64,000 nucleotides of DNA from Nitrospirota bacterium (GTDB taxonomy: Bacteria > Nitrospirota > Nitrospiria > SBBL01 > JAADHI01). Positions within the stretch are counted from its first letter, which is position 1. Every line of letters starts with the position of its first letter. Position numbers and translations under genes: made by a program. The stretch is taken from the NCBI GenBank assembly GCA_029261195.1, contig JAJDBU010000059.1:147299-211298 (forward strand), written 5' to 3'. Positions 1-48,273 of this stretch are shown piece after piece. The notes beneath the pieces are model-generated. The model saw only the letters and a list, made by a program, of their open reading frames with translations. It made no database searches and was not told the origin of the DNA.

Positions 1-1121
1 TGTGGTGAAATCAAAAGATCCTTCGTGGTTTCCCGGAAGCAGAAGCGCGAGAAGACCAAGTCGGAATTTGTTGGCGACGGCGCGTCAACAGAGATATCCA
101 GTGTGCGATCCAAGACATCTCGCAAGGATTCGGAAGCGACATGCCATTCCTGACGCACATGCCGGACGTGCAAATCCATCGGACCAATGCACCAACGTCC
201 CCGATGATCTCGTGGGACGGAAAACCTGCCCCACCAAGGTTTGACAGCAAGCCGTTGTGGGCCCACGATCTCGTCTTTCAAATCATTCAATTCTGATTCT
301 CCCCATCTTAAGGGATTAGACCCTATCCACAAAAAAGTAAAAAAAAAGAATAGCAGAAAGCAAGATCCAGTGCTCAAAAAAAGAGTCAATCGTCCTTCGT
401 CGACGCCCTTTCCTCAAACAAAACAAAGCCGCCAATCCGGACGCAGCGCAGACAGCATTCGTGAAATTTGAGCCGATGCCCATGGCAGGAACCGCAGCCG
501 GTCATCATCTTTTCGGGATTCGGGGCATCGTCAATCGCTTTGTCTTCCCATATATGTAATGCCTGCTTTCCCTTTGACCACAAAATTCCTGTTCTTCAGA
601 TACAATACTTTGCCCGCAGGACAGATGGGTCGTCCCAGCTTGTGAGCTGGGCATCTTCGCGCTTTCATTGTCGGTGATGTTGCTTTTGATGAGCTTGCCG
701 CTTTTTCCAGTTCTATCTTCGTTCTCTAATAGAAATTGTTTGATCTTTTCTGATTTTTTCCGGAGTTTTCTCAACTGCTTTTCTCTTTTTTCTTCTTCCG
801 ATTTTTCTGGTGTCGCGATCTGATCTTCTGCCCGGTGTCGCTTCAGGATATGACCGATGACTTTCTCTGGTTTTTCTTTTTTCTTTGCAAGGTCGGACTT
901 TGTGCCACTCCATTCTTTTGAGGCGTTTGGCGGATTCGATGTGATTTTAATCGGATCTAGATTGAATCCTAAAAATGTGCAGGAGCGAGATTTCTCATTT
1001 TGTTATCTCATGGAAATGGCCCAGCTTGGAAAGCAATTAAGAGTTGGCGGATATCGCAGCTGCCCGGTCACTGGGCCAAGCCGATATTGACAGCTCAGCG
1101 TCCCATCTCTACAATCCGCCC

Positions 1122-7544: not shown

Positions 7545-9335
7545 ATGACTGATAATAAAAGCGATACTAAGGCAACTCAAGGCCCCGCATCTGTTCAAGC
7601 GAAGAAGAACAAAAGCAAAAACATTATCATCTGTTCGGATGGCACCGGCAACCGGGGGGGTGTTGGGCCGAGTACGAATGTTTGGCGTTTATACAATGGT
7701 ATCGACTTAAATCATCAACAGCGAAAGCAGATCACCTATTATGACGATGGTGTCGGCACGGAAGACAGTAAGTATTTGAAGATGCTGACGGGTGCAATGG
7801 GGCTTGGTTTTACGAGAAATGTGAAGCAGATCTATAAATTTCTTGTACTCAACTATGTCGAAGGAGATGACATTTATCTCTTCGGATTCAGCCGGGGCGC
7901 TTACACCGTCCGAGCACTCTCTGCCTTTGTTACAAGTTGCGGCGTCATCAAAGATGCCAAAAGACTGGATGATCAGCAACTCACAGATGCTGTTGATCAA
8001 CTGCTTGAAACTTATCATCAGCGACCCCGCCTACCTAAAGAAACATCCAAGCCGTCGAACGATGTCCTGAAGAAATATATGCAAGAGGTCCGAACACATA
8101 TAGAGACCAATTTCAAACATCCAAATTATACAAACCATCAAGATAAGCTGATCGGAACGAAGATAAACACAATCGGTGTCTGGGATACCGTTTCCGCCAT
8201 TGGACTGCCTTTTGAAGTCCCATTCAAAGATTGGCTGCTCAAGAAACGATTTCAATTCAAATTTAGAGACTACGCGCTATCTCCCGATGTCGCTCATGCC
8301 TACCATGCGCTTGCAATTGATGATGAGCGGCTTTCGTTTCACCCTGAAGTCTGGGACGAATCGGTCGCAAGAAAAGGTCAGATAGAGCAGGTCTGGTTTT
8401 CAGGGATGCATTCCGATGTCGGCGGCGGCTATCCAAAACAAGGACTTGCCCATGTGACATTGGAGTGGATGATAGCGAGAGTCAAACCCAATGGTCTGTT
8501 TTTTCAAGACGGCTTTGAGGATGAAGTCAAACGTGAGGCCGATGTCCATGCAAAGCTGTATGACTCACGTTCAGGATTCGCTGCATTCTATCGCTATGCC
8601 CCGCGCAACATAGAAGCGCTCTATAAAAAAGCATCTGGTTCTGGTGCCACCCACATCAATGTGCATGAATCTGTCTTCGACCGCATTGGTCGCCGGACAG
8701 GGAATTACAACCCCGGAAACCTCTTACCCGGAAGCAAGCTCGACATTCATGTCACCCCAGGCGGGATCAAACCGAGTCAAGCGCAAACCTTACAAAACAA
8801 GATCAATCAGCTCAAAACAAAAAGAGGCAGCCAAGGGGACCCCGCTGCCCCTTGGGTTGAAAAACGAAAAAACCTCCACTGGGCTTTTGTCGTGACGGTC
8901 TTGATGGTCATCACTGCCTTTGTGGTATTCATGATATTCCGATTAGATTTAGAAAAGCACAGCTTACAGGATGCAGGAGAGGTTCGTAATTTTATAAATT
9001 GGATCGTTTTACTCTTGGCCTCAGTCACTATGTTGTATGCCAGCTTCAAGCTCAGATCCAAAAAAAAGATGTTTTCGCTGTTAGTGATGTGGGGGGTGGT
9101 ATATGGCTTTAAATTCATACCTAAAGCCATTTCAGAAATACTCCTGTTTATATTGCCTGATATTGTCGCAGAAGCAATTATCTATTTTGCGGGAAACCAC
9201 CCTCAATATTTGGCACTTGTCCTCTCTCTTTTTATACTGGGTTGGGTATTGCGAGAAAGATATCGAGAGGAATGCAGTCAAATTTACGAAAACGCCTGGG
9301 AAACCCTTCATTTCATGAATGACACAAGGGGCTGA
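7545..9335 (+). CDS. DUF2235 (Tle1-like alpha/beta hydrolase) fused to a C-terminal multi-pass membrane domain
   Basis: IIICSDGTGN start, nucleophile elbow GFSRGA, GVWDTVSAIG, and HSDVGGGY (Ser-Asp-His layout of the DUF2235/Tle1 family). The last ~170 aa contain about 4-5 hydrophobic helices. Confidence 0.7.
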   Translation: MTDNKSDTKATQGPASVQAKKNKSKNIIICSDGTGNRGGVGPSTNVWRLYNGIDLNHQQRKQITYYDDGVGTEDSKYLKMLTGAMGLGFTRNVKQIYKFLVLNYVEGDDIYLFGFSRGAYTVRALSAFVTSCGVIKDAKRLDDQQLTDAVDQLLETYHQRPRLPKETSKPSNDVLKKYMQEVRTHIETNFKHPNYTNHQDKLIGTKINTIGVWDTVSAIGLPFEVPFKDWLLKKRFQFKFRDYALSPDVAHAYHALAIDDERLSFHPEVWDESVARKGQIEQVWFSGMHSDVGGGYPKQGLAHVTLEWMIARVKPNGLFFQDGFEDEVKREADVHAKLYDSRSGFAAFYRYAPRNIEALYKKASGSGATHINVHESVFDRIGRRTGNYNPGNLLPGSKLDIHVTPGGIKPSQAQTLQNKINQLKTKRGSQGDPAAPWVEKRKNLHWAFVVTVLMVITAFVVFMIFRLDLEKHSLQDAGEVRNFINWIVLLLASVTMLYASFKLRSKKKMFSLLVMWGVVYGFKFIPKAISEILLFILPDIVAEAIIYFAGNHPQYLALVLSLFILGWVLRERYREECSQIYENAWETLHFMNDTRG

Positions 9336-10848: not shown

Positions 10849-10915
10849 ACACTTTTTTTAAGTGACAGCTCAGTACGGGGCATTATAAAATGACAGCCTT
10901 TTTGGGGAATGAAGC

Positions 10916-12040
10916 ATGAACGATATCTCATTTTTAACCGGCTTAAGCAGATTACAAATGCGCATGCTGGACATCTGCCGTGTAATGGCCGAAGACGAAA
11001 AAGCGTTTATCGAGGCCAAAGATTTCCTGCAAGTCTTTACAAGTGCCGAATGGGATATGGACGACGAGACTTTTGAGGAGGAATGCGAGGCCCTGGAATG
11101 CGAGATTAGAAATATCGACGATTACCCGCCTGAAAGTGTCGGCTACGCCTTCCGTCTTCTTTTGCTTATGGGACTTCCCTGGCGTTGCCGCTACCCCTAT
11201 TTTGACCTGATTGGCGCAATCGGGGATTATCATGACGAGATTCCCTTCGGGCCTGCTTCTGTCGAACTCAGACTCTCAAAATATGCAAACTTCATCCTGC
11301 CGACAGAAAGAGAACCCCTGCTTCCGATGGCACTTTTAAACGGCGCTTCCCTTGCGGACGGCACTGAGATTCCGGCACATAATCTGGAAGAACTCTGGAT
11401 CGCCATAGAACATCTTCGCCAGAATCCGGATATCCCCCTCGACGACCTGATGGAAATTTTACCCGGTCCGGATTTCGCTGCGGGAGGCGTAGTCGGAGGG
11501 CTTGAAGCAATCCACAGCCTCTATAAAACAGGGGAAGGCACTTTGACCTTGAGAGCTCGGATTGATGTCGAGATCGAAGGGGGACGAACCCGCGTTGCGA
11601 TCCGTTCTCTTCCTCAAGGGGTATTGATCAAAACTGTGCTGGATCAGATTCGTCTATTGTCTGCAAAAGAGGCCTTCCCGCTTTACAAGCTAAAAGATAT
11701 TTCGGCGGGCATGCAGATTGGCATTGTTCTGGATGTTTCACCCAAAGTCTGCTCAGAACAATTAAAGGAGATCCTGTTTCGTGAGACAGACTTGGAGGTG
11801 ACCCGCACTTTTCGCTGTGGTTTTAAAGATCCATTCACCTGGTCTGAAACGGGAAACCTGCTCTCAATTCTTAAAGAAGCGGCACTGCAATGCCCGACGG
11901 CATGGAAAAGAAAAGACGGCCAGCCCAGCGAAGTCCTCCCGTCATTTAGCGATATTCTGGAGCACGGGGGCTATAAAAACCCCTTGAGCCGACTTATTGA
12001 TGGACGTCGGTCGAGAGTGTTAAGGATGGCCGCATCATGA
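10916..12040 (+). CDS. GyrA/ParC N-terminal-domain-like protein lacking the catalytic tyrosine
   Basis: Colinear with GyrA: [22 protein letters not shown] matches [33 protein letters not shown] matches [24 protein letters not shown] matches AYRTGRGKVYIRARA. The MRYTEIRL active-site stretch reads ASVELRL, with no Tyr. Confidence 0.55.
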   Translation: [374 protein letters not shown]

Positions 12041-12981
12041 AAGCCATTGTTTTTGCTACAGATCACTTGAACTCAGATTATCGCCTCAATGGCCTCAGTA
12101 GTTCTTTTTTAAATTTGCAGGGAAGGCCCATCCTGCTCTATGTACTTGTCGCCTTGAATCAATTGTCTGATATCGACGAGATCGCCATCGTCGGGCCACC
12201 CTCACAGATTATGCGCGTCCTCGAAGCCGCCCTCTTTGAAGTTCCCTTTTCAAAAAAAATCACCGTTCTACCGCAAAAAAAACAGCTCCTTGAGGATCTA
12301 CAGTCCGCAATATGTGGAGAAGCACAGCAAGCGCCTGATCCCCTACAGGTTTTGCCGACAGACGAAGCGGTGCTTTGTCTGCCAGGTAACATTCCATTGA
12401 TTACGACTGCCGAAATTGAGGCCTTTCTTGCGGATTCCGACATGACCTCTTATGACTATTGTATCGGGATCACTGAGGAAAATGCGCTGCGTGCCTTCTA
12501 TCCGGAGGGCGAGAAATCCGGTATCAAAAACCCCTGTATTCAAGTACAAAACAAATCCTTTCGTCTGAATAATCTTCACCTCCTTTACCCTTCTCGCATC
12601 AGCAGAGTCGTACAGGAGCAGCCTAATGCGTCGAAAAATGGAATCGGGTCAGGGTCTAGTACGCTACCGCTCTATATATCTGCATTATTGGGCGGAGGAC
12701 TCCGTAAATCAGATCAAGCTCATGAACTCGTATTATCCCTGTCTCATCAGAACAGTTCTATTGAAATGCTTGAAGACTGTTTATCCGAGATAAGCCAAAT
12801 AAAACTCAAGTTCACGGGACGCTGGAAAGGCGGGGCCGCATTAAATATTAATGATGAAGCTAGCTTTCAAGCAGTTTCAGAGCGAATCGATGATTGGCGA
12901 ATACTGACTGAGGATCTGAATCAAACAGAAGAGGGGAAGAAACAGTGCCCCACTTCGGGCCTTGCCTGTAAATCGGAATAA
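12037..12981 (+). CDS. Nucleotidyltransferase-fold (MobA-like NTP-transferase) protein, degenerate
   Basis: Its start overlaps the upstream stop (ATGA). The N-terminal beta-alpha-beta (KAIVFA...LQGRPILLYVL...EIAIVG) and LCLPGNIPLIT resemble NTP_transf_3 proteins, but the glycine-rich NTP loop is not conserved. Confidence 0.35.
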   Translation: MKAIVFATDHLNSDYRLNGLSSSFLNLQGRPILLYVLVALNQLSDIDEIAIVGPPSQIMRVLEAALFEVPFSKKITVLPQKKQLLEDLQSAICGEAQQAPDPLQVLPTDEAVLCLPGNIPLITTAEIEAFLADSDMTSYDYCIGITEENALRAFYPEGEKSGIKNPCIQVQNKSFRLNNLHLLYPSRISRVVQEQPNASKNGIGSGSSTLPLYISALLGGGLRKSDQAHELVLSLSHQNSSIEMLEDCLSEISQIKLKFTGRWKGGAALNINDEASFQAVSERIDDWRILTEDLNQTEEGKKQCPTSGLACKSE

Positions 12982-13430: not shown

Positions 13431-13946
13431 TTAACCCACCCACTGTGAGATGGCACTGTAGCCTTTGGCAATATCTTGGGCGATGTTGATTCCGTTCTTA
13501 ATCCCTTTCACTGCTTTATGCAGCTTGGAATCTTTGTTTTCCAGTGCTTCGACTAAACGCCCTAAGCGCTTGGCGATGCCTTTCTTTTTGACTTCTTTTG
13601 GGTTCTTGAAGTTTTCAGCTTGCTCTAAGGCGATTGCGGCATTTTGGAGTTCTTTGGCTTCTTCTTCATCCCCTGCTTGTGTGAGGGATTGAGCCAAATC
13701 GTTTAAATCGCCCTGTAAGCCGATATTGCAGTTGTTGAAATTGAAAGTCGTATGTGTCGATTTATCAGCAATCAATTGATTTGCCTGTCCGCCTAACATC
13801 AAATTTTCAGTCTTTATGTCGTAATTATTAACCGTTTGGCTCAGATTGATTTTTTGTTTAGTAATGTATTCATAGAAAGGAACACTGTCTTTGGATTGAT
13901 TTAGAATCATGCTATCGGGTAACCACACTGGATGTTTCACCTCCAC
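13431..13946 (-). CDS. Hypothetical helical protein coupled to the Roc-COR GTPase
   Basis: 171-aa ORF overlapping the upstream stop by 10 nt. A GGAGG lies inside the overlap. Possible starts are GTG 13946, GTG 13928 and ATG 13910. The C-terminal half is K/E/A-rich and helical. No family recognised. Confidence 0.5.
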   Translation of the reverse strand: MEVKHPVWLPDSMILNQSKDSVPFYEYITKQKINLSQTVNNYDIKTENLMLGGQANQLIADKSTHTTFNFNNCNIGLQGDLNDLAQSLTQAGDEEEAKELQNAAIALEQAENFKNPKEVKKKGIAKRLGRLVEALENKDSKLHKAVKGIKNGINIAQDIAKGYSAISQWVG

Positions 13947-15985
13947 TTCTCGGGTATTTCCCCATAGCGCTCGATCCGATACTGCAACTCAGGCTTTTCG
14001 CTTTTGTAGCTATTAAAAATATCGTTGAGTGTTTCTCTTAATGTACTGATGTAGTTGGTTTTATCTGGGCCTTTCACTGAAACCGTGATGTCCCGATCTT
14101 CTTCCCGTACCAATGCCATACTTCCTTTGTCATCTTTTAGTAGCACACCATAACGCCAGACAACATATTTTCCTTTTTCTCTTTTTATTTGCTGATTGTG
14201 GCGGACGATGAAACGGGAAATCGTGTTGGGCGGCAAAGCTTGTTCTGCTTTGTATCGCAGCATCAAGCTTTCTCCTACAGGGAAATCGGGCAGTTCATTG
14301 GGGCGGTCTTCATTCAATAAATGAGGAATGACGAGTTTTTTTTCTTCCTTTGTTTCATAGGCCAACTCATAGTGTTTCATCAGCTTAAAAAGGAAGGGAT
14401 GTTTATCCTTTGGGTGGCGATTGCCGTCTTCTTTAAATACGACTTCAAACTCATCTAAAGTCAGTGAATACTTTTTTTCTTCATTGACCCAGTTGATGAT
14501 TTTATAGACACCGTGACTGATCCATTCGGGGTTCAGTACTAGGGTATCGATTTCCTTCATACCGCCGTACCACAAACTGACACCCAGATAATGCAGGTCT
14601 TTTAATATTTCATGGACATTGGCGATCTTATGTTTTTCTGCGATCTGGCGAAACTCATCTAAAGTGATGTGTTCTTGCCCCTTGTTCTTATCATTCTTGT
14701 CAAAAAGCTTTTCTAGTTCTTCTTTAACAAGGTAGTAGTTGGTGGGGATTTCTTGATTTTCCCAGGAGGGATTGGTTTTTATATAGTCTGCAACCTTATG
14801 GCGAAAGGCTTCTAGTTTCGTTTTGTCGTCTTGAATCGAAAAGGTGTAAACGCCCGCAATTGGATAGTTTTCTTTTAAGGTATTGATTTTAATATCTACA
14901 CTGTGTTGGTCACGTTTGTTGACTAAAATAATGGCTTGAGAATTACCTCCGTAATTTTTCATATGGTTGAGCCAATATTCCAACCTGTTTCTCTCTTCGG
15001 TTCGTCCATCATAGACCATGATATAAAGGCAGCGTTCTGATAAGAAAAATTGATGCACGGCATGGCTCACTGTGTGGCCTGCAAAATCCCAAATGCGTAC
15101 ATTAATATTATCTTCTTCCAATACCCACAGCGTCGTATCAACGCCTGCCGTGCTCTCATCATCCGTGGTCATGGGTGCATCGGGATCAATCAATCGTCTT
15201 GCGATACAGGTTTTCCCCGACCCTTTATCACCCAGGATAATAATCCGAGCTTCGTTGAGCCGCACCGCGCCTTGCGTTTCTAATGCTTCCAAATAGTTGG
15301 CGACTGCGGCAGCACCTTGCTCGCGGATTTCTTTTGGTACATTGATACGTCTTTCTAAGGCTTGTTGGTCTAGGACTAATCCACTATCAAAAATGCTCTG
15401 ATACAGGCGGCCCCAGTAGGCACAGCCTTCGTTTTTAAGCGCTTTTTGAAAATGATCCCAAGTCTCACAATACCAGTCAGTCGACTGACCTTGGTGCTCT
15501 CCTAGCTTTTTTTGTATATTCTTTAAATCTTGTAAAATTATAGATGCTAAATACCTATAATTTTGGGCATACACAGCGGCCGCGCGGGTGACGACCTTGG
15601 CTGCCTCGGTTTCTCCTTTAAGGTGGTGGGAGTGGCTCGCGTAGAAGACAGCTTCGGAAGCGACGGTGGCAACCTCTGCTGCCCCGATAGCCCCGGCGGT
15701 ACGAGCAGAGATGGCTGAGACGGAAACGGCGTCATAGGCGGAGAAGGCGTAGGCGGTGTAGAGGTGGCCGCCAAGGGTGGCTCCGTAGGCACACAGATCT
15801 AAAGCATAAAAAATACGCTGGATATGTCCTTGCCGATTTTTTTTAGACCAATAGTTGAAATCTCCCTCACTCCCCAAAAATGGCAAAGCCCGTACCGCAC
15901 AACGCCATGTAAAGTGTATAATTTGATCACGATCAAGTTGTTTTAATTCTTGTTCTATTTTTTTCTTAAACTTTTCTCTGTCCAT
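13937..15985 (-). CDS. Roc-COR (ROCO-type) small GTPase with an unassigned N-terminal helical domain
   Basis: G1 GDKGSGKT, G3 WDFAGH, and G4 NKRD. A COR-like region follows (LKDLHYLGVSLWY...LVLNPEWISHGVYKIIN). The first ~245 aa are Ala-rich, helical and contain no LRR. Confidence 0.75.
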   Translation of the reverse strand: MDREKFKKKIEQELKQLDRDQIIHFTWRCAVRALPFLGSEGDFNYWSKKNRQGHIQRIFYALDLCAYGATLGGHLYTAYAFSAYDAVSVSAISARTAGAIGAAEVATVASEAVFYASHSHHLKGETEAAKVVTRAAAVYAQNYRYLASIILQDLKNIQKKLGEHQGQSTDWYCETWDHFQKALKNEGCAYWGRLYQSIFDSGLVLDQQALERRINVPKEIREQGAAAVANYLEALETQGAVRLNEARIIILGDKGSGKTCIARRLIDPDAPMTTDDESTAGVDTTLWVLEEDNINVRIWDFAGHTVSHAVHQFFLSERCLYIMVYDGRTEERNRLEYWLNHMKNYGGNSQAIILVNKRDQHSVDIKINTLKENYPIAGVYTFSIQDDKTKLEAFRHKVADYIKTNPSWENQEIPTNYYLVKEELEKLFDKNDKNKGQEHITLDEFRQIAEKHKIANVHEILKDLHYLGVSLWYGGMKEIDTLVLNPEWISHGVYKIINWVNEEKKYSLTLDEFEVVFKEDGNRHPKDKHPFLFKLMKHYELAYETKEEKKLVIPHLLNEDRPNELPDFPVGESLMLRYKAEQALPPNTISRFIVRHNQQIKREKGKYVVWRYGVLLKDDKGSMALVREEDRDITVSVKGPDKTNYISTLRETLNDIFNSYKSEKPELQYRIERYGEIPEKWR

Positions 15986-16056: not shown

Positions 16057-17601
16057 CTAATTCCAGTGTCGCCAGCCTTTCAAATAATAGCTCAAGATCA
16101 GCGGACGATCGAGGGAGCTGTATTCAATGTTTTCTTCGATAAGGTCTTTCGCAAAGGTAAATAAAGAACTTGCGATCTTGTCCTCAAGGTAGCGCGTCGG
16201 TACTTCAATCTGAACAGAATCCGTATCCAGTTGCGCTTCAGAGGCTAGCACAAAACCCCAATCTCCAAAAGAAGGGATGTAGAGGTGGTAGGGATGGGTC
16301 TTCATTCCAGCTTCGGTGATTGTCGCATTGATGCACCAGAAGGCCTTTTTCGCAAAATAAGGGCTGGTTGCCTGCGTGAGAAAGATGCCCCCTTTATTCA
16401 GGCGTGAGCGGATCAGTCGATAAAATTCCCGGCTGTAAAGCCGCGAAAGAGACACGTTGTTCGGATCGGGCAGGTCTGAAATGATGATATCAAAAGGCTC
16501 TTTGACCTCTTTAAGGAAAACAAAGGCGTCTTCATTAAATATCGTGACTCGCTTGTCCTCAAGGCTTTCCCGATTCATTTCTCTGATGTACTTATTTTTC
16601 TTAGAGATTCGGATGATTTCCGGGTCGATATCGACCAGGGTAATCGATTCGACATCGTCATATTTCAGCATCTCCCGCACAGCAAGTCCATCTCCTCCGC
16701 CCAAAATGAGTATGTTTTTTCGTCTTGGTGCGAGGCTGAGTGGAATATGAACAAGGGCCTCGTGATAGCGGTATTCGTCAACGGAAGAGAATTGCAGGTT
16801 GCCGTCCAGAAAGAGGCGAACGTCGTCTTTTGCTTTGGTCAAAATGATCTTTTGGTACTTGGTTTGTAAGGAAAAAATAATCCGGTCTTCGTAGAGAGAG
16901 CTGCTCCACGCTTTCATGAGAAAAGGGGCCGTTAAAAAGAGGCCTGCGAGAACAATGCAAACGGCAGTCGATGCAATAGTATAAAGCCGTCTCCGGCCAA
17001 GATTAAGCTCATCTTTAAAACACCAGAGGTTCATGAATCCGATGCACATATTAATCAAACCGAAAAAAAGAGAGCTTTTAAATGTGCCTAAAAAGGGGAG
17101 GAGGAGAAAGGGGAAAAGCAGGGTGGCAATCAAGGCGCCCAGGTAATCAATGGAGAGTACGTTAGATATATTGATTTTCAAGGTGTAGTACTGCTCCATG
17201 ATACGTGTGAGCAGAGGGATTTCAAGGCCGATCAGTGTGCCGATGGAGAGAATCATGAGCACCATGAAGAGTGTGTAGGACTCGGTGTAGGCATAACAGA
17301 AGTAGAGAATGGGCACGGACATGCCGCCAAGGAAGCCCAGTGCAATTTCGACTGCGATGAATTTAGAGAGCAGGTTTGTTTTGATGAGACGTGAGATGTA
17401 GGAGCCGATGCCCATGGCCGCCATGTAAAGGCCGATGGTAATCGAAAACTGTTTAACGCTGTCACCTAAAAAGTAGGAGGACGCGGTGCTGATGAGCAGC
17501 TCATAGATAATCGAGCAAAGCCCCGCGATAAAGATTGAGGCCACCAGAATCGAGATTTCTTTTTTCGACTCTGCTTGTGTAAGCTGTGTCGTATGGTCCA
17601 T
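16057..17601 (-). CDS. Membrane-bound polyamine aminopropyltransferase (spermidine-synthase-like)
   Basis: About 7-8 N-terminal TM helices, then the SpeE core: ILILGGGDGLAVRE, VDIDPE, and IISDLPDP. The ATG at 17601 overlaps the upstream stop (TAATG). The longer ORF to 17751 is rejected. Confidence 0.8.
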   Translation of the reverse strand: MDHTTQLTQAESKKEISILVASIFIAGLCSIIYELLISTASSYFLGDSVKQFSITIGLYMAAMGIGSYISRLIKTNLLSKFIAVEIALGFLGGMSVPILYFCYAYTESYTLFMVLMILSIGTLIGLEIPLLTRIMEQYYTLKINISNVLSIDYLGALIATLLFPFLLLPFLGTFKSSLFFGLINMCIGFMNLWCFKDELNLGRRRLYTIASTAVCIVLAGLFLTAPFLMKAWSSSLYEDRIIFSLQTKYQKIILTKAKDDVRLFLDGNLQFSSVDEYRYHEALVHIPLSLAPRRKNILILGGGDGLAVREMLKYDDVESITLVDIDPEIIRISKKNKYIREMNRESLEDKRVTIFNEDAFVFLKEVKEPFDIIISDLPDPNNVSLSRLYSREFYRLIRSRLNKGGIFLTQATSPYFAKKAFWCINATITEAGMKTHPYHLYIPSFGDWGFVLASEAQLDTDSVQIEVPTRYLEDKIASSLFTFAKDLIEENIEYSSLDRPLILSYYLKGWRHWN

Positions 17602-17855
17602 TATTTCCCGGCGCGTGGCCCGCCACCCTGGCGACTCGAACCGCCGGTACTGCCGGATCTGACGCTGGGTGATCCGTAGTAGCGAGGTCCGCCGAAATAC
17701 CAGAAGGATGGTCCATAAGCATAACCGCCGTAGTATCCCGGATAGCCCCAACCCCGAAAACTGAGCGAAAACAGGAAGACATAAACCAGAACCAGAGCAA
17801 TGATGACGCCAAGAAAGACACCACCACCTTGGTTATTTAAGGGGCGTTTTAGCAT
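17601..17855 (-). CDS. Small membrane protein with Gly/Tyr-rich tail
   Basis: 84 aa with one TM helix (GVFLGVIIALVLVYVFLF) and then a G/Y/S-rich low-complexity tail. Translationally coupled to the spermidine-synthase-like gene. Confidence 0.5.
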   Translation of the reverse strand: MLKRPLNNQGGGVFLGVIIALVLVYVFLFSLSFRGWGYPGYYGGYAYGPSFWYFGGPRYYGSPSVRSGSTGGSSRQGGGPRAGK

Positions 17856-29248: not shown

Positions 29249-30979
29249 ATTCAAAACGTCGTCGCCACCCTCTCAATTCTGATTCCCCTTCTCCCGCTAC
29301 TAGCGGGTCTCCTGATTCCAACCCTGGGAAAGCGAATCGGTGAGCGTGTCTACCTTGTCGGCCTTACCGCGCAGATTATCGCCTTCTTCACAAGCCTGCT
29401 GGCGCTCTATCAAGTGAGTGTCGGTGCGGCCATCCAGATCAATCCCCTGTCCTTTCTGGAAAACGGTATCATGCACGCAGGTCTTTTCATCGATCGCCTG
29501 GCTGCTGTCATGATGGTGCTGGTGACTTCGGTCAGCATTGTCATCCATGTTTTTGCCTCACGTTATCTTCAGGAAGAACAAGGCTTTACCCGCTTCTACA
29601 CCCTGCTCTCGCTCATTACCTTTACGCTGCTGGCCCTGGTTGCAAGCCCGAACCTGCTGATGCTCTTTGTCTTCTGGCAGCTACTGGGCTGGCTGCTTTA
29701 CTTGCTGCTGGCCTACAACATCACCCATCTTCCAAGCGCTCAGGCGGCCTTTAAAACCCTGATTATTCTTCGTGTCGGAGATGTTTTTTTTCTGGGCGGC
29801 GTCATCCTGGCCTATCTTATTTTCGGGACCCTCGATTTTCCCCTACTCTTTGAGAAAGCTGCGGCAGGTCCGATTCCACTTCCTCTTCTTCCGGGAGGCT
29901 TGCTCTCCATTGACGCAGTCACGGCCATCACCCTGCTGATTTTTGTGGGGGCGATGAGCAAGTCGGTCCAATTCCCCTTCCATGTCTGGCTGCCCGATAC
30001 CATGTATGGCCCCTCTCCGGTCTCGGCCCTGATGCACGCGGGTATTGTGAATTCCGGCGGATTTTTATTGAATCGCTTAGCCCCCCTCTACGGGCTTTCC
30101 TCTCCCAGCCTCCACGTGGCCTTTGCGGTCGGCGCGTTCACGACCTTCCTTGGGGCGATCATCATGCTCACTGTGAACGATGTCAAAAAGATGCTCGGCT
30201 ACTCGACTATTGCACAGATGGGCTACATGATCATGGAGTGCGGATTGGGCGCCTTTGCCCTGGCGATCTTCCACTTCATCGCCCACGGCTTGTTTAAAGC
30301 GACCCTCTTTTTAAGCTCGGCCAGCGCCATCGGCGCGGCCCGGAAGGAGCCAAAATTCCCGCATCACGGAGTAGACGATGCCATACCCCCTGCGCCATTC
30401 TCCGTCCTGACCTGGAGTACCGGGCTTGTTACGACCCTCCTGCTTCCCCTGCTTATTTTATTGTCCGCCCATGATCTTTTTCATATCCCGCTGGTCGGGG
30501 CAGGAGCGCATGGGGCCGTCATCTTTCTCTTTTTCTCCTGGGTCACCTCGTCACAGGCCATCCTCAGCCTCTACCGTCTCAATGCAGTGTCCTCCTGGAA
30601 GGTGGCGGGAGCGATGGTGCTGACGCTGATCCTCATTGTATTTACTTACCTCTGGGCGGGAGAACTCTTCACCCATTTCCTCTATCCCGATCCGGGCCTG
30701 GCTGCCTATTATTTTGAGGTCGCAGCATTGCACCCGCTTTTATTCGACCTTGCCATCATCGTTGCGACCTTAGGTACCGTCCTCATCTGGGTCAATCTCT
30801 ACGCCGAGGCCCACGGAAAACGACGAGAGAAACCGGCTTGGATGTCCGCGCTTGAAGAAAAGACCTATGTGTTTTGCATGAAGGGCTTCTATATCGACGG
30901 ACTCTATCAGCGCCTGAATCAAAAAGTGCTTCATGTCATCCAGGTGATTGATAAACGCTATTTGGCGAGGATTCCATAA
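29249..30979 (+). CDS. dabB: DabB / MpsA-like proton-conducting membrane subunit (NuoL/MnhA family)
   Basis: Typical antiporter-like core (WLPDTMYGPSPVSALMHAG, GYSTIAQMGYM). The frame is open from 29237 and encodes a canonical NuoL-type N-terminus (ILIPLLPLLAGLL) upstream of the GTG at 29414. The only start-like codon there is ATT at 29249, 10 nt after AAGGA. Confidence 0.7.
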   Translation: MQNVVATLSILIPLLPLLAGLLIPTLGKRIGERVYLVGLTAQIIAFFTSLLALYQVSVGAAIQINPLSFLENGIMHAGLFIDRLAAVMMVLVTSVSIVIHVFASRYLQEEQGFTRFYTLLSLITFTLLALVASPNLLMLFVFWQLLGWLLYLLLAYNITHLPSAQAAFKTLIILRVGDVFFLGGVILAYLIFGTLDFPLLFEKAAAGPIPLPLLPGGLLSIDAVTAITLLIFVGAMSKSVQFPFHVWLPDTMYGPSPVSALMHAGIVNSGGFLLNRLAPLYGLSSPSLHVAFAVGAFTTFLGAIIMLTVNDVKKMLGYSTIAQMGYMIMECGLGAFALAIFHFIAHGLFKATLFLSSASAIGAARKEPKFPHHGVDDAIPPAPFSVLTWSTGLVTTLLLPLLILLSAHDLFHIPLVGAGAHGAVIFLFFSWVTSSQAILSLYRLNAVSSWKVAGAMVLTLILIVFTYLWAGELFTHFLYPDPGLAAYYFEVAALHPLLFDLAIIVATLGTVLIWVNLYAEAHGKRREKPAWMSALEEKTYVFCMKGFYIDGLYQRLNQKVLHVIQVIDKRYLARIP

Positions 30980-30980
30980 A

Positions 30981-32180
30981 ATGAAAAAGGTCGCCCTGGG
31001 AATCACCCTCGCAACGCACATCGGCCTTTCGGTCTTTTTATCCGGAGGGACGACTTCATTGATGACCCCGCTTGTCCTCCTGCTTCCCCTTGCGGCCACG
31101 TTCACGCTTCTTGCCGCTGATGGACATCTGACGGACAGGGCAGAGCTGCTCACTCTCCTACTCCTTCTGTGTCTTGGCCTGGGCTTCATGATGCTACCAG
31201 GCGGGGCGAGTCTTCTTGCCCTGGGTGGGGTTTTCATTGTCTTGATTGTGCTGCTGTTTCGAGAACAAAGCCGGTCCCGTTTTTCGGTACTTTGGGGTAT
31301 CGGACTCTATGGATTCGCACTGGCGGCCCTCTTTGCCTCTTTTGCAGTCTCTTCCCCGACAGCATCTACTCTATTGTTCATAGCCTATGCCATTCTTCTT
31401 CCCACTTGTCCGCTGCATGGGGCATCCATCGTGTGCGCAAGTCGTCTGCGGGGGATTCCGCCTAATTTTCTTGCGCTCTTTTTGCCGATACTGGGACTGC
31501 ACGGAGCCTTGGGTATCCTCCCCGACCTACCCTCTGCACTCATGAATGTCGTGTCTGTTTTTGCCTTGATCGGCGCGCTTTACGGCGGCATTCGGGCAGT
31601 GGTTCAAACCAACATCCGCCATCGATTGGCCTATGCCGCACTCAGCTTCTGGTCGATTCTCTGGTGGTATCTTGCCTCTCCCGGCATGGAGGCAGCGACG
31701 GCGATGCTTTACCTCTGCGCCCTCGGTCTTATCATGCAGGGACTCTTTGTCAGCGTACAACTACTGGAAAAACGTCATGGCCTGCTGAATCTCGATCAAT
31801 TGGGCGGACTGGCTCAGGTCATGCCTCGTTTCGGTGTCTTATTGAGTCTGCTGGTTGCAGCAGGCATGGGCCTGCCCCTCTTCGGTTCTTTCACAGCCTT
31901 GCTTGCCATGGCGACCTCTCCGGCAACCACACTTTCATGGGGTTTTGTGCTTGTCCTCCTGGCCTGGCTCCTGTCCTCCTGGCATTTTCCCCTTTTCATG
32001 CAGCGCATTCTCATGGGTCCGCCGAAACCCGATAGAATCTACCGCGACCTGGACCGAAGCGAAACCCTTTCTTTAACTCTAATTGTCGTGATGATCGTGA
32101 TACTGGGAATTGCGCCACAAGTCCTTATCGGCTCAGCACAGACACTTTCCGTTCAGAAGGCCAACTCCCGGATAAAATAG
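30981..32180 (+). CDS. Second, short antiporter-like (NuoM/NuoN/MrpD family) membrane subunit
   Basis: The ATG at 30981 lies 1 nt after the dabB stop. Core motifs: RHRLAYAALSFWS, LGGLAQVMP, and GLPLFGSFTALLAM. About 12 TM helices. Confidence 0.6.
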   Translation: MKKVALGITLATHIGLSVFLSGGTTSLMTPLVLLLPLAATFTLLAADGHLTDRAELLTLLLLLCLGLGFMMLPGGASLLALGGVFIVLIVLLFREQSRSRFSVLWGIGLYGFALAALFASFAVSSPTASTLLFIAYAILLPTCPLHGASIVCASRLRGIPPNFLALFLPILGLHGALGILPDLPSALMNVVSVFALIGALYGGIRAVVQTNIRHRLAYAALSFWSILWWYLASPGMEAATAMLYLCALGLIMQGLFVSVQLLEKRHGLLNLDQLGGLAQVMPRFGVLLSLLVAAGMGLPLFGSFTALLAMATSPATTLSWGFVLVLLAWLLSSWHFPLFMQRILMGPPKPDRIYRDLDRSETLSLTLIVVMIVILGIAPQVLIGSAQTLSVQKANSRIK

Positions 32181-32182
32181 AC

Positions 32183-35100
32183 ATGGCTGAAACAAAGATG
32201 AACAAAAAAACAAAGAACGCCTACGACGATTCCGCCCGAATGGGCTTGAGGGGGCTCGTCCGTATCGCCGGTGAAATCAATTCAAGCGTTTGGCCGATGA
32301 CCTCCTTCGTCACCAATAACCCGCTGCATTCCCTGGAATATCTCGATTTTGAAGAAGCCATCCGTCTGGGTCGTGAGCGGATCGGCGGCTTAGGCTATCT
32401 CTCAAATACATTTTACCGGGACTATTACCGGTCCGGGCGTATTCTTTTGGAAGACATCGATCAGGCCCTTAAAACACGGGTACAGGATGAAAGCATTCAA
32501 CTTGGAAATCGCGAATTGAGCCATAAAGAAGTCCTTCGCATCCGCCTTCTTGTCCCGACGGCTCCGCCGAAAACAGCGGCCGCAGACATCCTGCTTCAAA
32601 TTGCAGAAGACGCAGGCGGCCTGAAAAAACTGTCGGAAAAACTGAAAGGGACCATCAAAGCCCCATCAATCGAAGAACAAATCGCCGCCATGCAAAAAGC
32701 GGATTCGGGCAAACTGGCCCATCACCAAAGCCTTTCCCGATGGTGTGACGAAAGTTTCGGGACGGAGATCTCCGAAAAAATCAACAAGGAAATGACCCAT
32801 TGGTGCGGGGCTTTTTTGGATGAGGGACAGGCCCCCTGGGAAATGCCCGGTAGAGAACAGGGCTTTTACACGGCATGGAAACGCGCCGCACAAGAGTATT
32901 GTGAGGGTAGCGGTATCCGCAATATCCGGGAGAAGATCAGCCGTCTTTCAGAACATGCTGAATCTGCTGTGCTGGAAAGCCTTGATCTGCTGGGGATTCC
33001 ATCGTCTGCACGGGAAGCCTACCTTTCACTTCATCTTGCCGCGCTTCCCGGCTGGACGGCCTTTGCCAAGTGGCGGTCACGGCAGACTGAATATGAATGG
33101 CAGAAGGCTTATCCGATTGATCTGGTTCAGATGCTGGCCGTTCGTTTGTGGTATGAGCGGGAATGGGTATTAACGCTTTGTGATGAAAAAATCCGTCCGG
33201 GAGATGAAAACGCCTATGGGACGATTCTCACCTACATGGAACAATGCTCCGCAGCACATTTTTTCAGAAAGGAAGGTGTTGCAGGCCACTTGCCCGCCTG
33301 GCTTTCAGAGGAGGTTGATCTTCTGCTTTATGCCGATCTCTCCCGACAGACAAAAGGCTGGGATCAACTGGCCGCAGACTACGAAAACGAAGAGAGCCCG
33401 GATCGAGACCGCCTTGCCTGTCTTTCCGCTGCCTGGCAACTCACGGCCCTTGCTTATGAACTGAAGATCAATGCTGAACACCTGCACGACCTCCCGACGG
33501 ACAGGCTCTTGACCCTGCTTGCCTGGCTGGAAGACTTCCCTGAATCCCGACACGGACCCTATTGGCTGGCGGCTTTTGAGGCGGGTTATCGGCGGACACT
33601 GATCGAAAAATTGCAACGAAATATCGTCAAAAGTACGGAACGAAATGCGACATCTTCAAATGGCCGTCCCCTGGCCCAGGCCATCTTCTGTATTGATGTC
33701 CGTTCGGAACCCTTCCGTCGTCAACTGGAACAGGTCGGTCATTACGACACCTACGGCTTTGCCGGTTTTTTTGCGGCCTTCATCCGTTATCGCGCCTTTG
33801 GCAGCCACCACGACACCGACCTCTTCCCCGTGGTGATGGAAGCCAAGAATGTCGTCCATGAAATCCCCAGAATCTCTGAAGAAAAACACGTCTCCCGTCA
33901 CCTGGCCGGAACAAAACTCCTCCATGCGGGACACACCCTTTTTCACGACCTGAAAGAAAACGTCATCACCCCCTATGTCATGGTCGAATCCATCGGCTGG
34001 TTTTTCGCCTTTCCCTTTTTCGGGAAAACCTTCTGGCCCGTGCAATATGCAGCCTGGGTCAAGCGCCTGCTGAAACGCTTTGCCCCGCCCATCGCCACCA
34101 CTCTAACAGTGGATAAATCAAGTAAGGCGGAGGTGGAAGAAATCATCATTTCCGAACAGTGTGTGACGATTCGTCAGGCCCTTCGAGCATGGCTTAATCG
34201 ATCGGTCAGTGATGTTCCCCACAATCGGATTGAAGCCCTGCGTGAATGGGCCTTGAGCGGAAGTTTGTCGCAAGCGGAGGGTAGGAAAAAAACACATCAG
34301 AAGACCCTGAGCCTCTTTAAATCCAAAGCAGACGCAAGCGCCTTTGTTGAAGAACTCAGCAAGCGCTATCGGATCACTCCCGGATGGTCTTCGGCCCGAA
34401 TGGAGCAGGTGACACGGACAGGTTATACGGTGAAGGAACAGGCCTTTACGGTCGAAACGGCCTTTAGGGTGATGGGGCTCACGGACAATTTCGCCCCTTT
34501 TGTTCTGCTTTGCGCCCACGGCAGCAGCAATGAAAACAACCCCTTCGAGGCGGCCCTCGACTGCGGGGCCTGCGGCGGAAATCCCGGTGGCCCCAATGCG
34601 CGGGTTTTAGCGGCGATGGCGAACAAACCGGCCATCCGAAAATTACTCGCCAAAAAAGGACTGCTCATCCCGGAAGACACCTGGTTTATCGCCGCTCAGC
34701 ATGATACAACCACGGATGAAGTCAGCCTTTTTGACTTGGAAGAACTCCCCTCAAGCCATCATGAAGCGCTTTCCCGACTCAAAGACGATCTAAAAAAAGC
34801 CGCTCTGCTGAACAATGCAGAACGCTGTCGCACCCTGTCCAATCTTAAGACCGACCTTTCTCCGGAAGAGGCCTCAAAAGATGTGCAAAAACGCAGTAAG
34901 TCCTGGAACCAGGTAAGACCTGAATGGGGACTTTCAGGCAATGCGGCATTCATCATCGGTCATCGCGATTTGACGGAAGGTCTTGATTTGGCGGGTCGAG
35001 TCTTTCTTCATTCCTACGACACAGAGGCCGATCCGGAAGGCGCAAAGCTCGAAATCATCATGACCGGCCCCCAGGTGGTGACCCAGTGGATCAGCATGGG

Positions 35101-43117: not shown

Positions 43118-43123
43118 ATTTCA

Positions 43124-48254: not shown

Positions 48255-48273
48255 CGGTCTGTCGTCATTTTCA

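What the first reader, a model, noticed from the sequence alone, without database searches (positions are those of the whole stretch)
10916..12981. Catalytically dead GyrA/ParC-like protein coupled to a degenerate nucleotidyltransferase-fold protein
Seen in the sequence: the 374-aa product is colinear with the GyrA winged-helix and tower region (NGAS...[33 protein letters not shown]). Where GyrA has the DNA-cleaving AAMRYTEIRL, this protein reads GPASVELRL, with no tyrosine. It also lacks the C-terminal beta-pinwheel. Its stop overlaps (ATGA) the start of a 314-aa protein that has an NTP-transferase-like fold but no glycine-rich NTP loop. Both follow a Ppx/GppA phosphatase. Inference: this is a non-cleaving, DNA-binding or GyrB-binding derivative of topoisomerase subunit A. 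It could act as a decoy, a regulator or a nucleoid protein. I do not recognise the pair as a described system.
Basis: partly seen in the sequence, partly recalled or inferred. Interest (0 to 1): 0.6.

Follow-up and report, generated by a model that had tools for sequence, protein, structure and literature searches.

The report
Dead, truncated GyrA paralog with partner
A small group of uncultured Nitrospirota carries a well-conserved, cut-down copy of the DNA gyrase A subunit that has lost everything needed to cut DNA, and in this genome it is co-translated with an equally degenerate nucleotidyltransferase-like protein; nobody has described it and its job is unknown.

Summary
ORF A (10916-12040, 374 aa) is a true GyrA/ParC homolog (Pfam 1.8e-21; family profile vs PDB 1e-36; AF2 pLDDT 89.7; Foldseek 7e-23). 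It is reduced to winged-helix plus tower. It lacks the N-arm, the wing, the whole C-gate and the CTD. The RYT catalytic triad reads A-S-V. Across the family the Tyr position is Ser, Tyr, Gly or Leu and the Arg position is never Arg. Most conserved basic and His residues of the DNA gate are gone, and the protein is acidic (about -16). A is still under strong purifying selection (dN/dS 0.08-0.19) and has its own conserved promoter. The family is small, discrete and found only in Nitrospirota (Nitrospiria / Ca. Manganitrophaceae). ORF B (12037-12981) has an IspD/MobA fold. In the clade where it overlaps A by ATGA, B has lost its Gly loop, Lys and acidic motif. B copies not adjacent to A keep near-canonical motifs. 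Ppx upstream is incidental. "Non-cleaving" is well supported. "GyrB decoy or DNA binder" is untested, and the sequence gives reasons to doubt it. I found no description in the literature searched. It is a new variant of a known kind.

The parts
10862..10891 (+). Sigma-70-type promoter of the A-B unit (GTGACA-N18-TAAAAT), in the 67-nt gap after ppx
   Evidence: Found by the consensus scan, which alone is not significant (7 sites found, 6.2 expected). The same (G/A)TGACA(A/G)-N17-TATA(A/C/G)AAT element lies at the same distance upstream of A in L001, L003, L006, L007, L088, L089, L090, L008, L092 and L093, although the upstream genes differ.
10916..12040 (+). Gene A: 374-aa non-catalytic GyrA/ParC-derived protein (winged-helix + tower + closing strand)
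   Evidence: dN/dS is 0.08-0.19 in homolog pairs.
10973..11038 (+). Family-specific 22-residue insertion ([22 protein letters not shown]) in the winged-helix domain, within a very acidic N-terminal 70 residues (net charge -14.5)
   Evidence: Block map against E. coli GyrA and 84 GyrA/ParC representatives; charge calculation.
11222..11239 (+). Family-specific GDxHD(E/D) motif (GDYHDE) where GyrA/ParC have G-S-x-D-G-D
   Evidence: D104 is conserved in 94%, H106 in 91% and D107 in 100% of the family. The GyrA/ParC consensus is S/D/G at these columns.
11255..11263 (+). Remnant of the catalytic R-Y-T triad, here A114-S115-V116
   Evidence: Ungapped profile alignment to S. pneumoniae GyrA QRYTE; column counts S 23 / Y 15 / G 5, with no Arg at the preceding column; GyrA/ParC are 99-100% R, Y, T at these columns.
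11345..11920 (+). Tower domain and start of the helix that leads to the C-gate in GyrA (window residues 144-335 = E. coli GyrA 174-367)
   Evidence: It retains PxHN..E, PGPDF and G236. G173 is deleted and I174 is not conserved.
11921..12037 (+). C-gate deletion junction and closing segment (…[10 protein letters not shown]…[19 protein letters not shown]); R364 aligns with E. coli GyrA R517
   Evidence: E. coli residues ~368-508 are a gap in the whole family. The C-gate-less protein P0178 aligns in one stretch through this region, ending FGDKRRTAIV.
12037..12040 (+). ATGA stop/start overlap (translational coupling of A and B)
   Evidence: Identical ATGA junction in the window, L001, L003, L006, L007 and L088.
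12037..12981 (+). Gene B: 314-aa IspD/MobA-fold (GT-A-like NTP-transferase) protein with degenerate catalytic motifs
   Evidence: dN/dS is 0.13-0.27.
12049..12129 (+). Position of the NTP-binding Gly-rich loop and catalytic Lys of IspD/MobA enzymes, here VFATDHLNSDYRLNGLSSSF (no GxG, no Arg or Lys in register)
   Evidence: Profile alignment to B. subtilis IspD. B homologs not adjacent to A keep LAGDxG…NKAxL.
12379..12396 (+). LPGNIP, at the position of the acidic D-x-P motif of MobA-like enzymes
   Evidence: The residue is N in B copies that overlap A and D or E in unlinked copies (LPADIP / LPAEIP). The equivalence to the metal-binding D-x-P motif is from my own knowledge of MobA-like enzymes.
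12946..12969 (+). Conserved C-terminal C-x2-SG-x2-C tail (CPTSGLAC), preceded by the conserved DWR (12892-12900)
   Evidence: C304 is invariant, C311 is at least 90% conserved, W287 is invariant. This tail has low model confidence.

Best explanation
Gene A encodes a lineage-restricted pseudoenzyme derived from the GyrA/ParC breakage-reunion domain. It is reduced to the winged-helix and tower domains plus the short strand that closes the GyrA N-terminal domain. With no RYT triad, C-gate, N-arm or CTD, it cannot cleave DNA or form the three-gate clamp, so it is not a topoisomerase subunit (shown). It is a stably folded, strongly acidic protein kept under purifying selection and transcribed from its own near-consensus promoter (shown). 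Without the C-gate it is probably monomeric (inferred). In the window's clade it is translationally coupled to B, an IspD/MobA-fold protein that has lost its NTP-binding signature in that same clade (shown). My best reading is that A and B form a stoichiometric, non-enzymatic complex. In that complex the old DNA-gate scaffold serves as a binding module for another macromolecule through surfaces new to this family: the GDxHD loop, the ELW..E..RQ.P helix, GGRTR, and the C-terminal W..K…GGYK.PL..D.R segment (inferred). The target is unknown. A type IIA topoisomerase B subunit is the most obvious candidate but has no direct support.
For: Homology and fold. Loss of catalytic and DNA-gate residues, measured against 84 diverse GyrA/ParC representatives: R32, K42, R46, K65, H78, H80, G81, D82, R91, R121, Y122, T123, G173/I174 and K270 are all changed or deleted, while core motifs are kept. 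The Tyr column is S/Y/G/L, with E-Y apparently ancestral and several independent replacements. dN/dS is 0.08-0.19 in Ser-, Tyr- and Gly-type pairs alike, so the function does not depend on that residue. Architecture: N-arm, wing, C-gate and CTD are absent. Acidity: median pI 5.06, net charge -16. The family is discrete: five full-length 50%-identity representatives at 408-601 bits, then a drop to 139 bits for ordinary GyrA/ParC. A conserved promoter lies upstream of A regardless of the neighbouring gene. The ATGA coupling to B is present in 6 of 6 non-redundant Ser-clade loci although the flanks are rearranged on both sides. B's motifs are degenerate only where it overlaps A. No defence-system, phage or literature match was found.
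Against: All carriers belong to one lineage, so A-B adjacency and the Ser/B correlation amount to about one evolutionary event plus L093, where B lies 3.5 kb away, and could be inherited synteny. A persists without an adjacent B in Tyr- and Gly-type lineages, and B occurs without A within 6 kb in L086, so neither needs the other next to it. B remains under purifying selection and some family members keep D/E and K, so residual or altered enzymatic activity cannot be excluded. The conserved GDxHD motif could equally be a new catalytic or metal site in A.
Confidence: 0.5

Rival explanations
1. GyrB/ParE-binding decoy or regulator. A occupies the GyrA-binding face of the Toprim domain and so titrates or regulates the B subunit of gyrase or topo IV.
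For: A keeps the WHD + tower scaffold that faces the Toprim domain in all type IIA enzymes, and many core motifs (LxNG, PxHN..E, PGPDF) are retained. An acidic surface would suit a DNA-mimicking inhibitor such as MfpA or Igy, which act on GyrB (review PMC10886550).
Against: The GyrA N-terminal arm (residues 1-31) is absent, and the near-invariant RALPDxxDGLKPxxRR segment survives only as G-L…R. No gyrB/parE or any Toprim gene lies near A in any locus. No GyrA-derived regulator is listed among known protein inhibitors of gyrase. Binding was not tested.
Confidence: 0.2
2. Non-cleaving DNA-binding or DNA-bending (nucleoid) protein that uses the G-segment groove of WHD + tower.
For: The fold is the DNA-gate half of GyrA. 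R47, Y86, E124 and R126 equivalents are kept.
Against: Net charge is about -16 and the N-terminal 70 residues carry -14.5. Conserved basic residues K42, R46, K65 (now Glu), R91 and K270 are lost. The wing (E. coli 136-155) is deleted. The G173/I174 element, which I recall as the DNA-bending intercalation site, is deleted or not conserved. Without the C-gate there is no obvious dimer to form a two-fold DNA groove.
Confidence: 0.1
3. Neofunctionalised enzyme. The family-specific GDxHD(E/D) loop next to the old active site, possibly with B, forms a new metal-dependent catalytic site unrelated to topoisomerase chemistry.
For: D104, H106 and D107 are 91-100% conserved and absent from GyrA/ParC. E117 and R119 nearby are retained. 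Purifying selection is strong. B homologs not adjacent to A keep near-canonical NTP-transferase motifs, so the ancestral B was probably an enzyme.
Against: The loop is the least confident part of the A model (pLDDT 69 for residues 101-110). No known enzyme family matched. The adjacent ex-Tyr residue varies freely. The window's B has lost its Gly loop, Lys and acidic residue.
Confidence: 0.12
4. RNA-related role. A works with the neighbouring DEAD-box helicase and tRNA/nucleotide genes (Dus, Maf), with the WHD-tower exapted to bind RNA or an RNA-processing protein.
For: Maf-Dus lies divergently upstream of A (or of B) in L086, L088, L089, L090, L092 and L093. An orthologous DEAD-box helicase (69-82% identity) follows A within 16-41 nt in L005, L091 and L092.
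Against: All loci come from one lineage, so this may be plain synteny. The helicase near A-B in L088 is only a paralog (35-38%). The window has none of these genes within 64 kb. Acidity argues against nucleic-acid binding.
Confidence: 0.06
5. Decaying relic of a duplicated gyrA/parC with no function, adjacent to B by chance.
For: Catalytic residues are lost and several domains are deleted.
Against: ORFs are full-length and intact in every lineage at 45-89% identity, with 39 invariant columns. dN/dS is 0.08-0.19. The fold prediction is confident. The promoter is conserved. The ATGA junction is conserved.
Confidence: 0.02

Closest known systems
GyrA / ParC N-terminal breakage-reunion domain (GyrA59/ParC55; PF00521)
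   Same: Homologous and colinear. It has the same winged-helix + tower fold (Foldseek E~1e-22, TMq 0.70) and shares core motifs: GL…R47, Y86, G107/G110, E124/R126, LxNG, PxHN..E, PGPDF, G236 and R517.
   Different: No RYT triad, H78/H80, N-arm, wing, C-gate coiled coil or dimerisation domain, and no CTD. It has a 22-residue acidic insertion and a new GDxHD motif. It scores 115 bits where NCBIfam needs 654-902 for GyrA/ParC.
P0178-type C-gate-less GyrA-like protein (535 aa, metagenomic, uncharacterised)
   Same: It also lacks the C-gate and CTD and ends at the GDKRRT closing strand. It aligns in one stretch with the family's residues 76-369. It has also lost the Arg of the RYT triad (I-Y-T).
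   Different: It is much closer to canonical GyrA (PF00521 4e-58). It keeps Tyr, the GLKPAQRR segment and the wing, and has an unrelated ~180-aa N-terminal domain. It is not a member of the family (112 bits against at least 408).
Non-catalytic relatives of type IIB topoisomerase subunits (TopoVI-like subunits, mini-A)
   Same: They are a precedent for topoisomerase subunits being recruited to other roles; the families are named in bioRxiv 10.1101/2022.05.08.491100. The analogy is conceptual only.
   Different: They belong to a different superfamily (type IIB, Spo11/Top6A fold). No sequence or fold relation was tested or is expected.
Protein regulators of gyrase (YacG, GyrI, MfpA/Qnr, MurI, CcdB/ParE toxins, phage peptides)
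   Same: If the decoy hypothesis is right, A would act like these, and its acidity recalls the DNA-mimic inhibitors (PMC10886550).
   Different: None of them derives from GyrA. No homology was found and no functional test was done here.
IspD / MobA / KdsB / GlmU-N nucleotidyltransferases and T. thermophilus TTHA0179 (PDB 2dpw)
   Same: B has the same fold (Foldseek E=9e-12 to 2dpw, TMt 0.78; about 1e-10 to IspD). It has weak sequence matches to PF12804 and to IspD.
   Different: In the window's clade, B lacks the Gly-rich loop, the Arg/Lys and the acidic motif. It has a ~130-residue C-terminal extension ending in DWR…CxxSGxxC. It scores below the Pfam cut-off (26.3 vs 27).

Membership tests
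DNA gyrase subunit A / topoisomerase IV subunit A (functional enzyme subunit) | Catalytic Tyr within the R-Y-T triad (E. coli R121-Y122-T123; triad described in PMC11164529) | tested here: not met
   The window reads A114-S115-V116. In the family the Arg column is never R, the Tyr column is S 23 / Y 15 / G 5 (plus L in two more representatives), and the Thr column is V or I.
DNA gyrase subunit A / topoisomerase IV subunit A (functional enzyme subunit) | C-gate: coiled coil ending in a globular dimerisation domain (PMC2995079) | tested here: not met
   E. coli residues ~368-508 are a gap in all family members. The protein resumes at the GDKRRT-equivalent strand.
DNA gyrase subunit A / topoisomerase IV subunit A (functional enzyme subunit) | C-terminal beta-pinwheel DNA-wrapping domain (with a GyrA box in gyrase; PMC9348778) | tested here: not met
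   The protein ends at the equivalent of E. coli residue ~525. All 43+ members are 362-392 aa.
DNA gyrase subunit A / topoisomerase IV subunit A (functional enzyme subunit) | Curated whole-protein score (NCBIfam equivalog/subfamily cut-offs) | tested here: not met
   The best score is 114.9 bits against a cut-off of 654 (PRK05561). GyrA models score 84-89 bits against 877-902.
GyrA/ParC superfamily (PF00521 DNA_topoisoIV domain, homology only) | Significant match to the domain model, and the winged-helix + tower fold | tested here: met
   PF00521 scores 76.9 bits against a cut-off of 31. Foldseek gives E=7e-23, TMq 0.70 and about 350 aligned columns. The profile vs PDB gives 1.4e-36.
MobA-like / IspD-like NTP transferase (PF12804 and relatives) | GT-A-like alpha/beta NTP-transferase fold | tested here: met
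   The model has pLDDT 77 and pTM 0.81. Foldseek hits are 2dpw at 9e-12, IspD at 1.7e-10, then KdsB and GlmU.
MobA-like / IspD-like NTP transferase (PF12804 and relatives) | N-terminal Gly-rich NTP-binding loop (AGxGxR) and the following catalytic Lys | tested here: not met
   IspD PAAGQGKRM…NK aligns to B FATDHLNSDYRL…SS. The loop is absent in every B that overlaps an A and partly kept (LAGDxG…NK) in unlinked B copies.
MobA-like / IspD-like NTP transferase (PF12804 and relatives) | Pfam gathering score | tested here: not met
   It scores 26.3 bits against a cut-off of 27, which is borderline. All NCBIfam equivalogs score below 15 bits against cut-offs above 100.
Known anti-phage defence systems (PADLOC-DB) | Match of either protein to any defence-system model | tested here: not met
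   No families matched A or B at E<=0.1.
Protein inhibitors or regulators of gyrase (functional class) | Physical binding to GyrA/GyrB and modulation of gyrase activity | not testable with these tools
   This needs biochemistry or a multimer prediction. There is only indirect sequence evidence, and most of it is unfavourable.

The most novel reading that the evidence does not exclude
A and B are a two-pseudoenzyme complex. It would be the first known case in bacteria of a type IIA topoisomerase A-subunit scaffold exapted into a non-topoisomerase role. That role could be a new kind of regulator of gyrase or topo IV B subunits or of DNA topology, or a new binding or catalytic module built on the GDxHD loop. 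Both partners' catalytic motifs would have degenerated together once the genes became translationally coupled.
Probability: 0.3. Interest if true: 0.75.

Novelty: new variant of a known kind. Interest (0 to 1): 0.52.

Why it matters
Type IIA topoisomerases are among the best-studied enzymes and major drug targets. To my knowledge, and in the literature I could search, no conserved bacterial paralog has been described that keeps only the winged-helix/tower half of GyrA and has lost cleavage, both dimerisation gates and DNA wrapping.

Such a protein shows that the DNA-gate scaffold can fold and be selected for on its own. It could also point to an unknown way of sensing or regulating topoisomerase B subunits or some other partner.

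The parallel loss of catalytic motifs in A and in its co-translated partner B is a clean natural example of two enzymes degenerating together into a presumably structural complex.

The limits are that the family is confined to a small, uncultured lineage (Nitrospiria, Ca. Troglogloeales/Manganitrophaceae-like MAGs) and there is no functional evidence yet.

Tried and rejected
1. Species-genome scan with the full family alignment. Only four true family loci were recovered, so absence elsewhere is not proven by that scan.

2. Metagenome scan re-seeded with a family-specific segment. It was clean but returned only seven loci.

3. Local HMM search for a second, C-terminal match of the family profile in full-length GyrA. 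None was found. The C-gate excision was instead shown by the MAFFT block map (R517 = R364) and by P0178.

4. PADLOC, phage tblastn and the viral structure library. They gave only ordinary viral or bacterial topoisomerases, so there is no defence or phage link.

5. Four literature searches plus reading four papers. None describes this family.

6. Exact look-up of the window's B protein in the contig index and cluster names. Neither gave a record or a name, so the window's assembly and organism remain unidentified beyond its Nitrospirota relatives.

7. GyrA versus ParC origin. The nearest relatives are a mix of both, so this is unresolved.

8. DEAD-box helicase as a family-wide partner. Rejected: it is orthologous only within the Tyr/Gly lineages and absent from the window.

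9. Ppx/GppA as part of the system. Rejected: it is not conserved upstream anywhere, and A has its own promoter.

10. Pseudogene or relic reading. Rejected by the dN/dS values.

Its register was checked only by R121/Y122 and by alignment with 84 database representatives.
Full report

Yes. The + strand carries ORF A (10916-12040, 374 aa) and ORF B (12037-12981, 314 aa), and they share an ATGA stop/start overlap.

A matches the GyrA/ParC domain model far above chance:
- PF00521: E=1.8e-21, 76.9 bits against a cut-off of 31.
- NCBIfam PRK05561: E=4.5e-33.
- S. pneumoniae ParC in the PDB: E=5e-23.

A profile of 43 family members hits PDB GyrA at 1.4e-36 and extends the match back to residue ~47-67. 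An AlphaFold2 model built on that alignment is confident (pLDDT 89.7, pTM 0.86). It superposes on GyrA/ParC breakage-reunion domains over about 350 of 374 columns (Foldseek E=7e-23, TMq 0.70). The upstream gene is a Ppx/GppA exopolyphosphatase and the downstream gene is a pterin-4a-carbinolamine dehydratase.

**2. Catalytic status of A**

The profile alignment is ungapped through the active site. Family [20 protein letters not shown] aligns with S. pneumoniae GyrA GSMDGDSAAAQRYTEARMSK. The active site of gyrase is described as an R-Y-T triad (PMC11164529). The window has A114-S115-V116 at those positions.

Across the 43 aligned members the Tyr column is Ser 23, Tyr 15, Gly 5, and the Arg column is never Arg. 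Two further representatives have Leu at the Tyr column. A rough NJ tree rooted on real GyrA/ParC places E-Y lineages basally. It implies several independent replacements of the Tyr: Gly in two or three lineages, Leu twice, and Ser in one large clade containing the window plus P0031 separately.

I also compared the family column by column with 84 diverse full-length GyrA/ParC representatives.
- **Lost:** nearly every residue that is at least 85% conserved there and that I recall as active-site or DNA-gate. These are R32 (the protein starts here), K42, R46, K65 (now Glu), H78, H80, G81, D82, R91, R121, Y122, T123, G173 (deleted), I174 and K270.
- **Kept:** structural-core motifs G40-L41, R47, Y86, G107, G110, E124, R126, L167-x-N169-G170, P183-x-H185-N186..E189, P215-D216-F217, G236 and R517.

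The functional roles of individual residues (R32/R47/H78/H80 near Tyr122, I174 as the DNA-bending intercalator) come from my own knowledge of the gyrase literature, not from a tool.

**3. Architecture of A**

The block map against E. coli GyrA gives the following picture.

| E. coli GyrA region | State in the family |
|---|---|
| N-terminal arm, 1-31 | absent |
| after residue 50 | 22-residue insertion |
| wing, 136-155 | deleted |
| 171-173 | deleted |
| 174-367 (tower) | present, = window 144-335 |
| ~368-508 (C-gate coiled coil and dimerisation domain) | deleted |
| 509-521 (closing strand) | present, = window 353-368 |
| C-terminal domain | absent |

The family-invariant R364 aligns with E. 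coli R517. An independent C-gate-less GyrA-like protein, P0178, aligns in one stretch through this whole C-terminus and ends in FGDKRRTAIV.

The family is acidic, with median pI 5.06 and net charge -16. The first 70 residues of the window protein carry -14.5. Family-specific conserved residues include a GDxHD(E/D) motif just before the former active-site loop, W161/E165/R168/Q169, T225/R226, D273, C326/W330/K333 and G351/G352.

**4. Is A a working gene?**

Yes.
- All members are full-length (362-392 aa) at 45-89% identity to the window protein, with 39 invariant columns.
- dN/dS is 0.11 for a Ser-type pair, 0.08-0.16 for Tyr-type pairs and 0.14-0.19 for Gly-type pairs. The protein is under strong purifying selection whatever occupies the old Tyr position.
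- A near-consensus sigma-70-type promoter, (G/A)TGACA(A/G)-N17-TATA(A/C/G)AAT followed by TTTGGAG and the ATG, lies upstream of A in most lineages even though the upstream genes differ. In the window it is at 10862-10891.

A-B is therefore its own transcription unit. The Ppx gene is incidental, and no other locus has Ppx upstream.

**5. Distribution**

The word-indexed search of 5.8 billion proteins found 44 clusters. Where they are named, all are Nitrospirota: Nitrospiria, Ca. Manganitrophaceae, 'Nitrospirae'.

The exhaustive HMM search of 1.84 billion representatives found only five full-length 50%-identity representatives plus fragments at 408-601 bits. Scores then drop straight to 139 bits for ordinary ~800-aa GyrA/ParC.

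A clean family-specific scan of JGI metagenomes found seven. Ca. Manganitrophaceae belongs to Nitrospiria / Ca. Troglogloeales. The nearest full-length relatives are a mix of GyrA and ParC, so the parent gene is unresolved.

**6. Protein B**

B has an IspD/KdsB/GlmU-N type (GT-A-like) nucleotidyltransferase fold. The model has pLDDT 77 and pTM 0.81. Foldseek gives E=9e-12 and TMt 0.78 to the uncharacterised T. thermophilus TTHA0179 (2dpw), and about 1e-10 to IspD. Sequence matches are marginal: PF12804 at 26.3 bits against 27, and the family profile vs IspD at E=0.008.

IspD's PAAGQGKRM…NK aligns with B's FATDHLNSDYRL…SS, so the Gly loop and the Arg/Lys are gone.

The B family (30 clusters, all Nitrospirota where named) has invariant L115/I119/P120/T123/E126, W287 and C304, and a C-terminal DWR…CxxSGxxC tail. 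B copies that are not adjacent to A keep a near-canonical LAGDxG…NKAxL and LPA(D/E)IP. B copies that overlap A read FA(T/N/G)(D/T)… and LPGNIP and have lost the Lys. B evolves faster than A (53% against 79% identity in the same genome pair) but is still constrained (dN/dS 0.13-0.27).

**7. How tight is the pair?**

| Lineage type | Loci | Position of B |
|---|---|---|
| Ser clade | window, L001, L003, L006, L007, L088 | starts at an ATGA overlap with A's stop in all six |
| Independently derived Ser-type | L093 | 3.5 kb downstream, same strand |
| Tyr- and Gly-type (≥1.9 kb downstream sequence) | L005, L009, L089, L090, L091, L092, L095, L098 | not adjacent; A is followed by EamA or a DEAD-box helicase |

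In the Ser clade the flanks differ on both sides: Ppx, NtrX, AHSA1 or Dus upstream, and PCD or GDH-CBS downstream.

The genes downstream of A in L089 (ABC_sub_bind, then HisKA) match those upstream of a 'lone' B in L087. In that lineage A and B probably lie about 8 kb apart in one block. L086 has Maf-Dus <> B <> CBS with no A within 6 kb.

So A and B belong to one ancestral syntenic neighbourhood anchored by Maf-Dus and CBS. They abut and are translationally coupled only in the Ser clade. The correlation between Ser at the ex-Tyr site, the ATGA overlap and the degenerate B motifs is striking, but it amounts to essentially one evolutionary event.

**8. What it most likely is**

- **Shown:** A is a non-catalytic, C-gate-less, acidic derivative of the GyrA/ParC DNA-gate half. 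It is maintained by selection and expressed from its own promoter.
- **Shown:** in this genome A is co-translated with a fold-intact but motif-degenerate NTP-transferase-like protein.
- **Inferred:** the two form a stoichiometric, non-enzymatic complex that uses family-specific surfaces to bind another macromolecule.

The N-arm and the conserved RALPD…K…R segment are gone, five of six conserved basic residues are lost, the wing and the I174 element are deleted, the protein is strongly acidic, and no Toprim gene is ever nearby. A new metal or catalytic site at GDxHD, or a role linked to the neighbouring DEAD-box helicase, Dus and Maf genes, are lesser alternatives. A decaying pseudogene is excluded.

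**9. Comparison with what is known**

A belongs to the GyrA/ParC superfamily by homology and fold. It fails every functional criterion of a GyrA/ParC subunit: the triad, the C-gate, the CTD and the curated scores. B has the IspD/MobA fold but fails the motif and score criteria.

- No defence-system model matches either protein.
- No phage or viral relative resembles the reduced form.
- A review of protein regulators of gyrase lists no GyrA-derived member (PMC10886550).
- Full-text searches found no description.

I rate it a new variant of a known kind. It is moderately interesting because the architecture is unprecedented and clearly under selection. The interest is limited by a narrow, uncultured host range and no functional evidence.

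Noticed in passing
protein P0178 (metagenomic representative, no locus): This is a second kind of C-gate-less GyrA-like protein (535 aa). It has an unannotated ~180-aa N-terminal domain, then a much more canonical WHD + tower (PF00521 4e-58) with I-Y-T in place of R-Y-T, and it ends at FGDKRRTAIV. Reduced GyrA derivatives may be more widespread than this one family.
   Followed up: partly
L005:9112-10449, L091:6129-7439, L092:3245-4516: In Tyr- and Gly-type lineages, A is followed within 16-41 nt by an orthologous DEAD-box helicase (69-82% identity), probably in the same operon. The window has no such helicase, and the Ser-clade locus L088 has only a paralog.
   Followed up: yes
window 7545-9335 (+): A 596-aa protein has a T6SS Tle1-like phospholipase catalytic domain (PF09994, 3.4e-75) fused to a hydrophobic C-terminal half. 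No T6SS genes were seen nearby.
   Followed up: no
window 13937-15985 (-), with 13431-13946 (-) overlapping its end: A bacterial Roc-COR GTPase (Roc 1e-25, COR-A 5e-25, COR-B 2e-13) has a ~240-aa N-terminal region with no domain match. It is followed by a 171-aa ORF that overlaps its stop.
   Followed up: no
window 29414-35443 (+): Two Proton_antipo_M (DabB-like) genes are followed by a 1086-aa DabA (PF10070, 2e-261). This looks like an inorganic-carbon uptake module, which fits an autotroph.
   Followed up: no
window 39246-41573 (-): A 775-aa protein joins a cytochrome bd-like subunit I region (PF01654, 2e-17) to a C-terminal cytochrome c domain. It is followed by two further large ORFs (41570-44662) that I did not annotate.
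   Followed up: no
window 16057-17751 (-): A 564-aa protein has multiple N-terminal hydrophobic segments and a C-terminal spermine/spermidine synthase domain (8e-47).
   Followed up: no
window 46317-48611 (-): A 764-aa ORF has no Pfam match at E<=0.001.
   Followed up: no
L086, L088, L089, L090, L092, L093: A divergently transcribed Dus (tRNA-dihydrouridine synthase) and Maf pair is the most constant neighbour of A (or of B when A is absent). In the window the A-B unit has left this context intact.
   Followed up: partly
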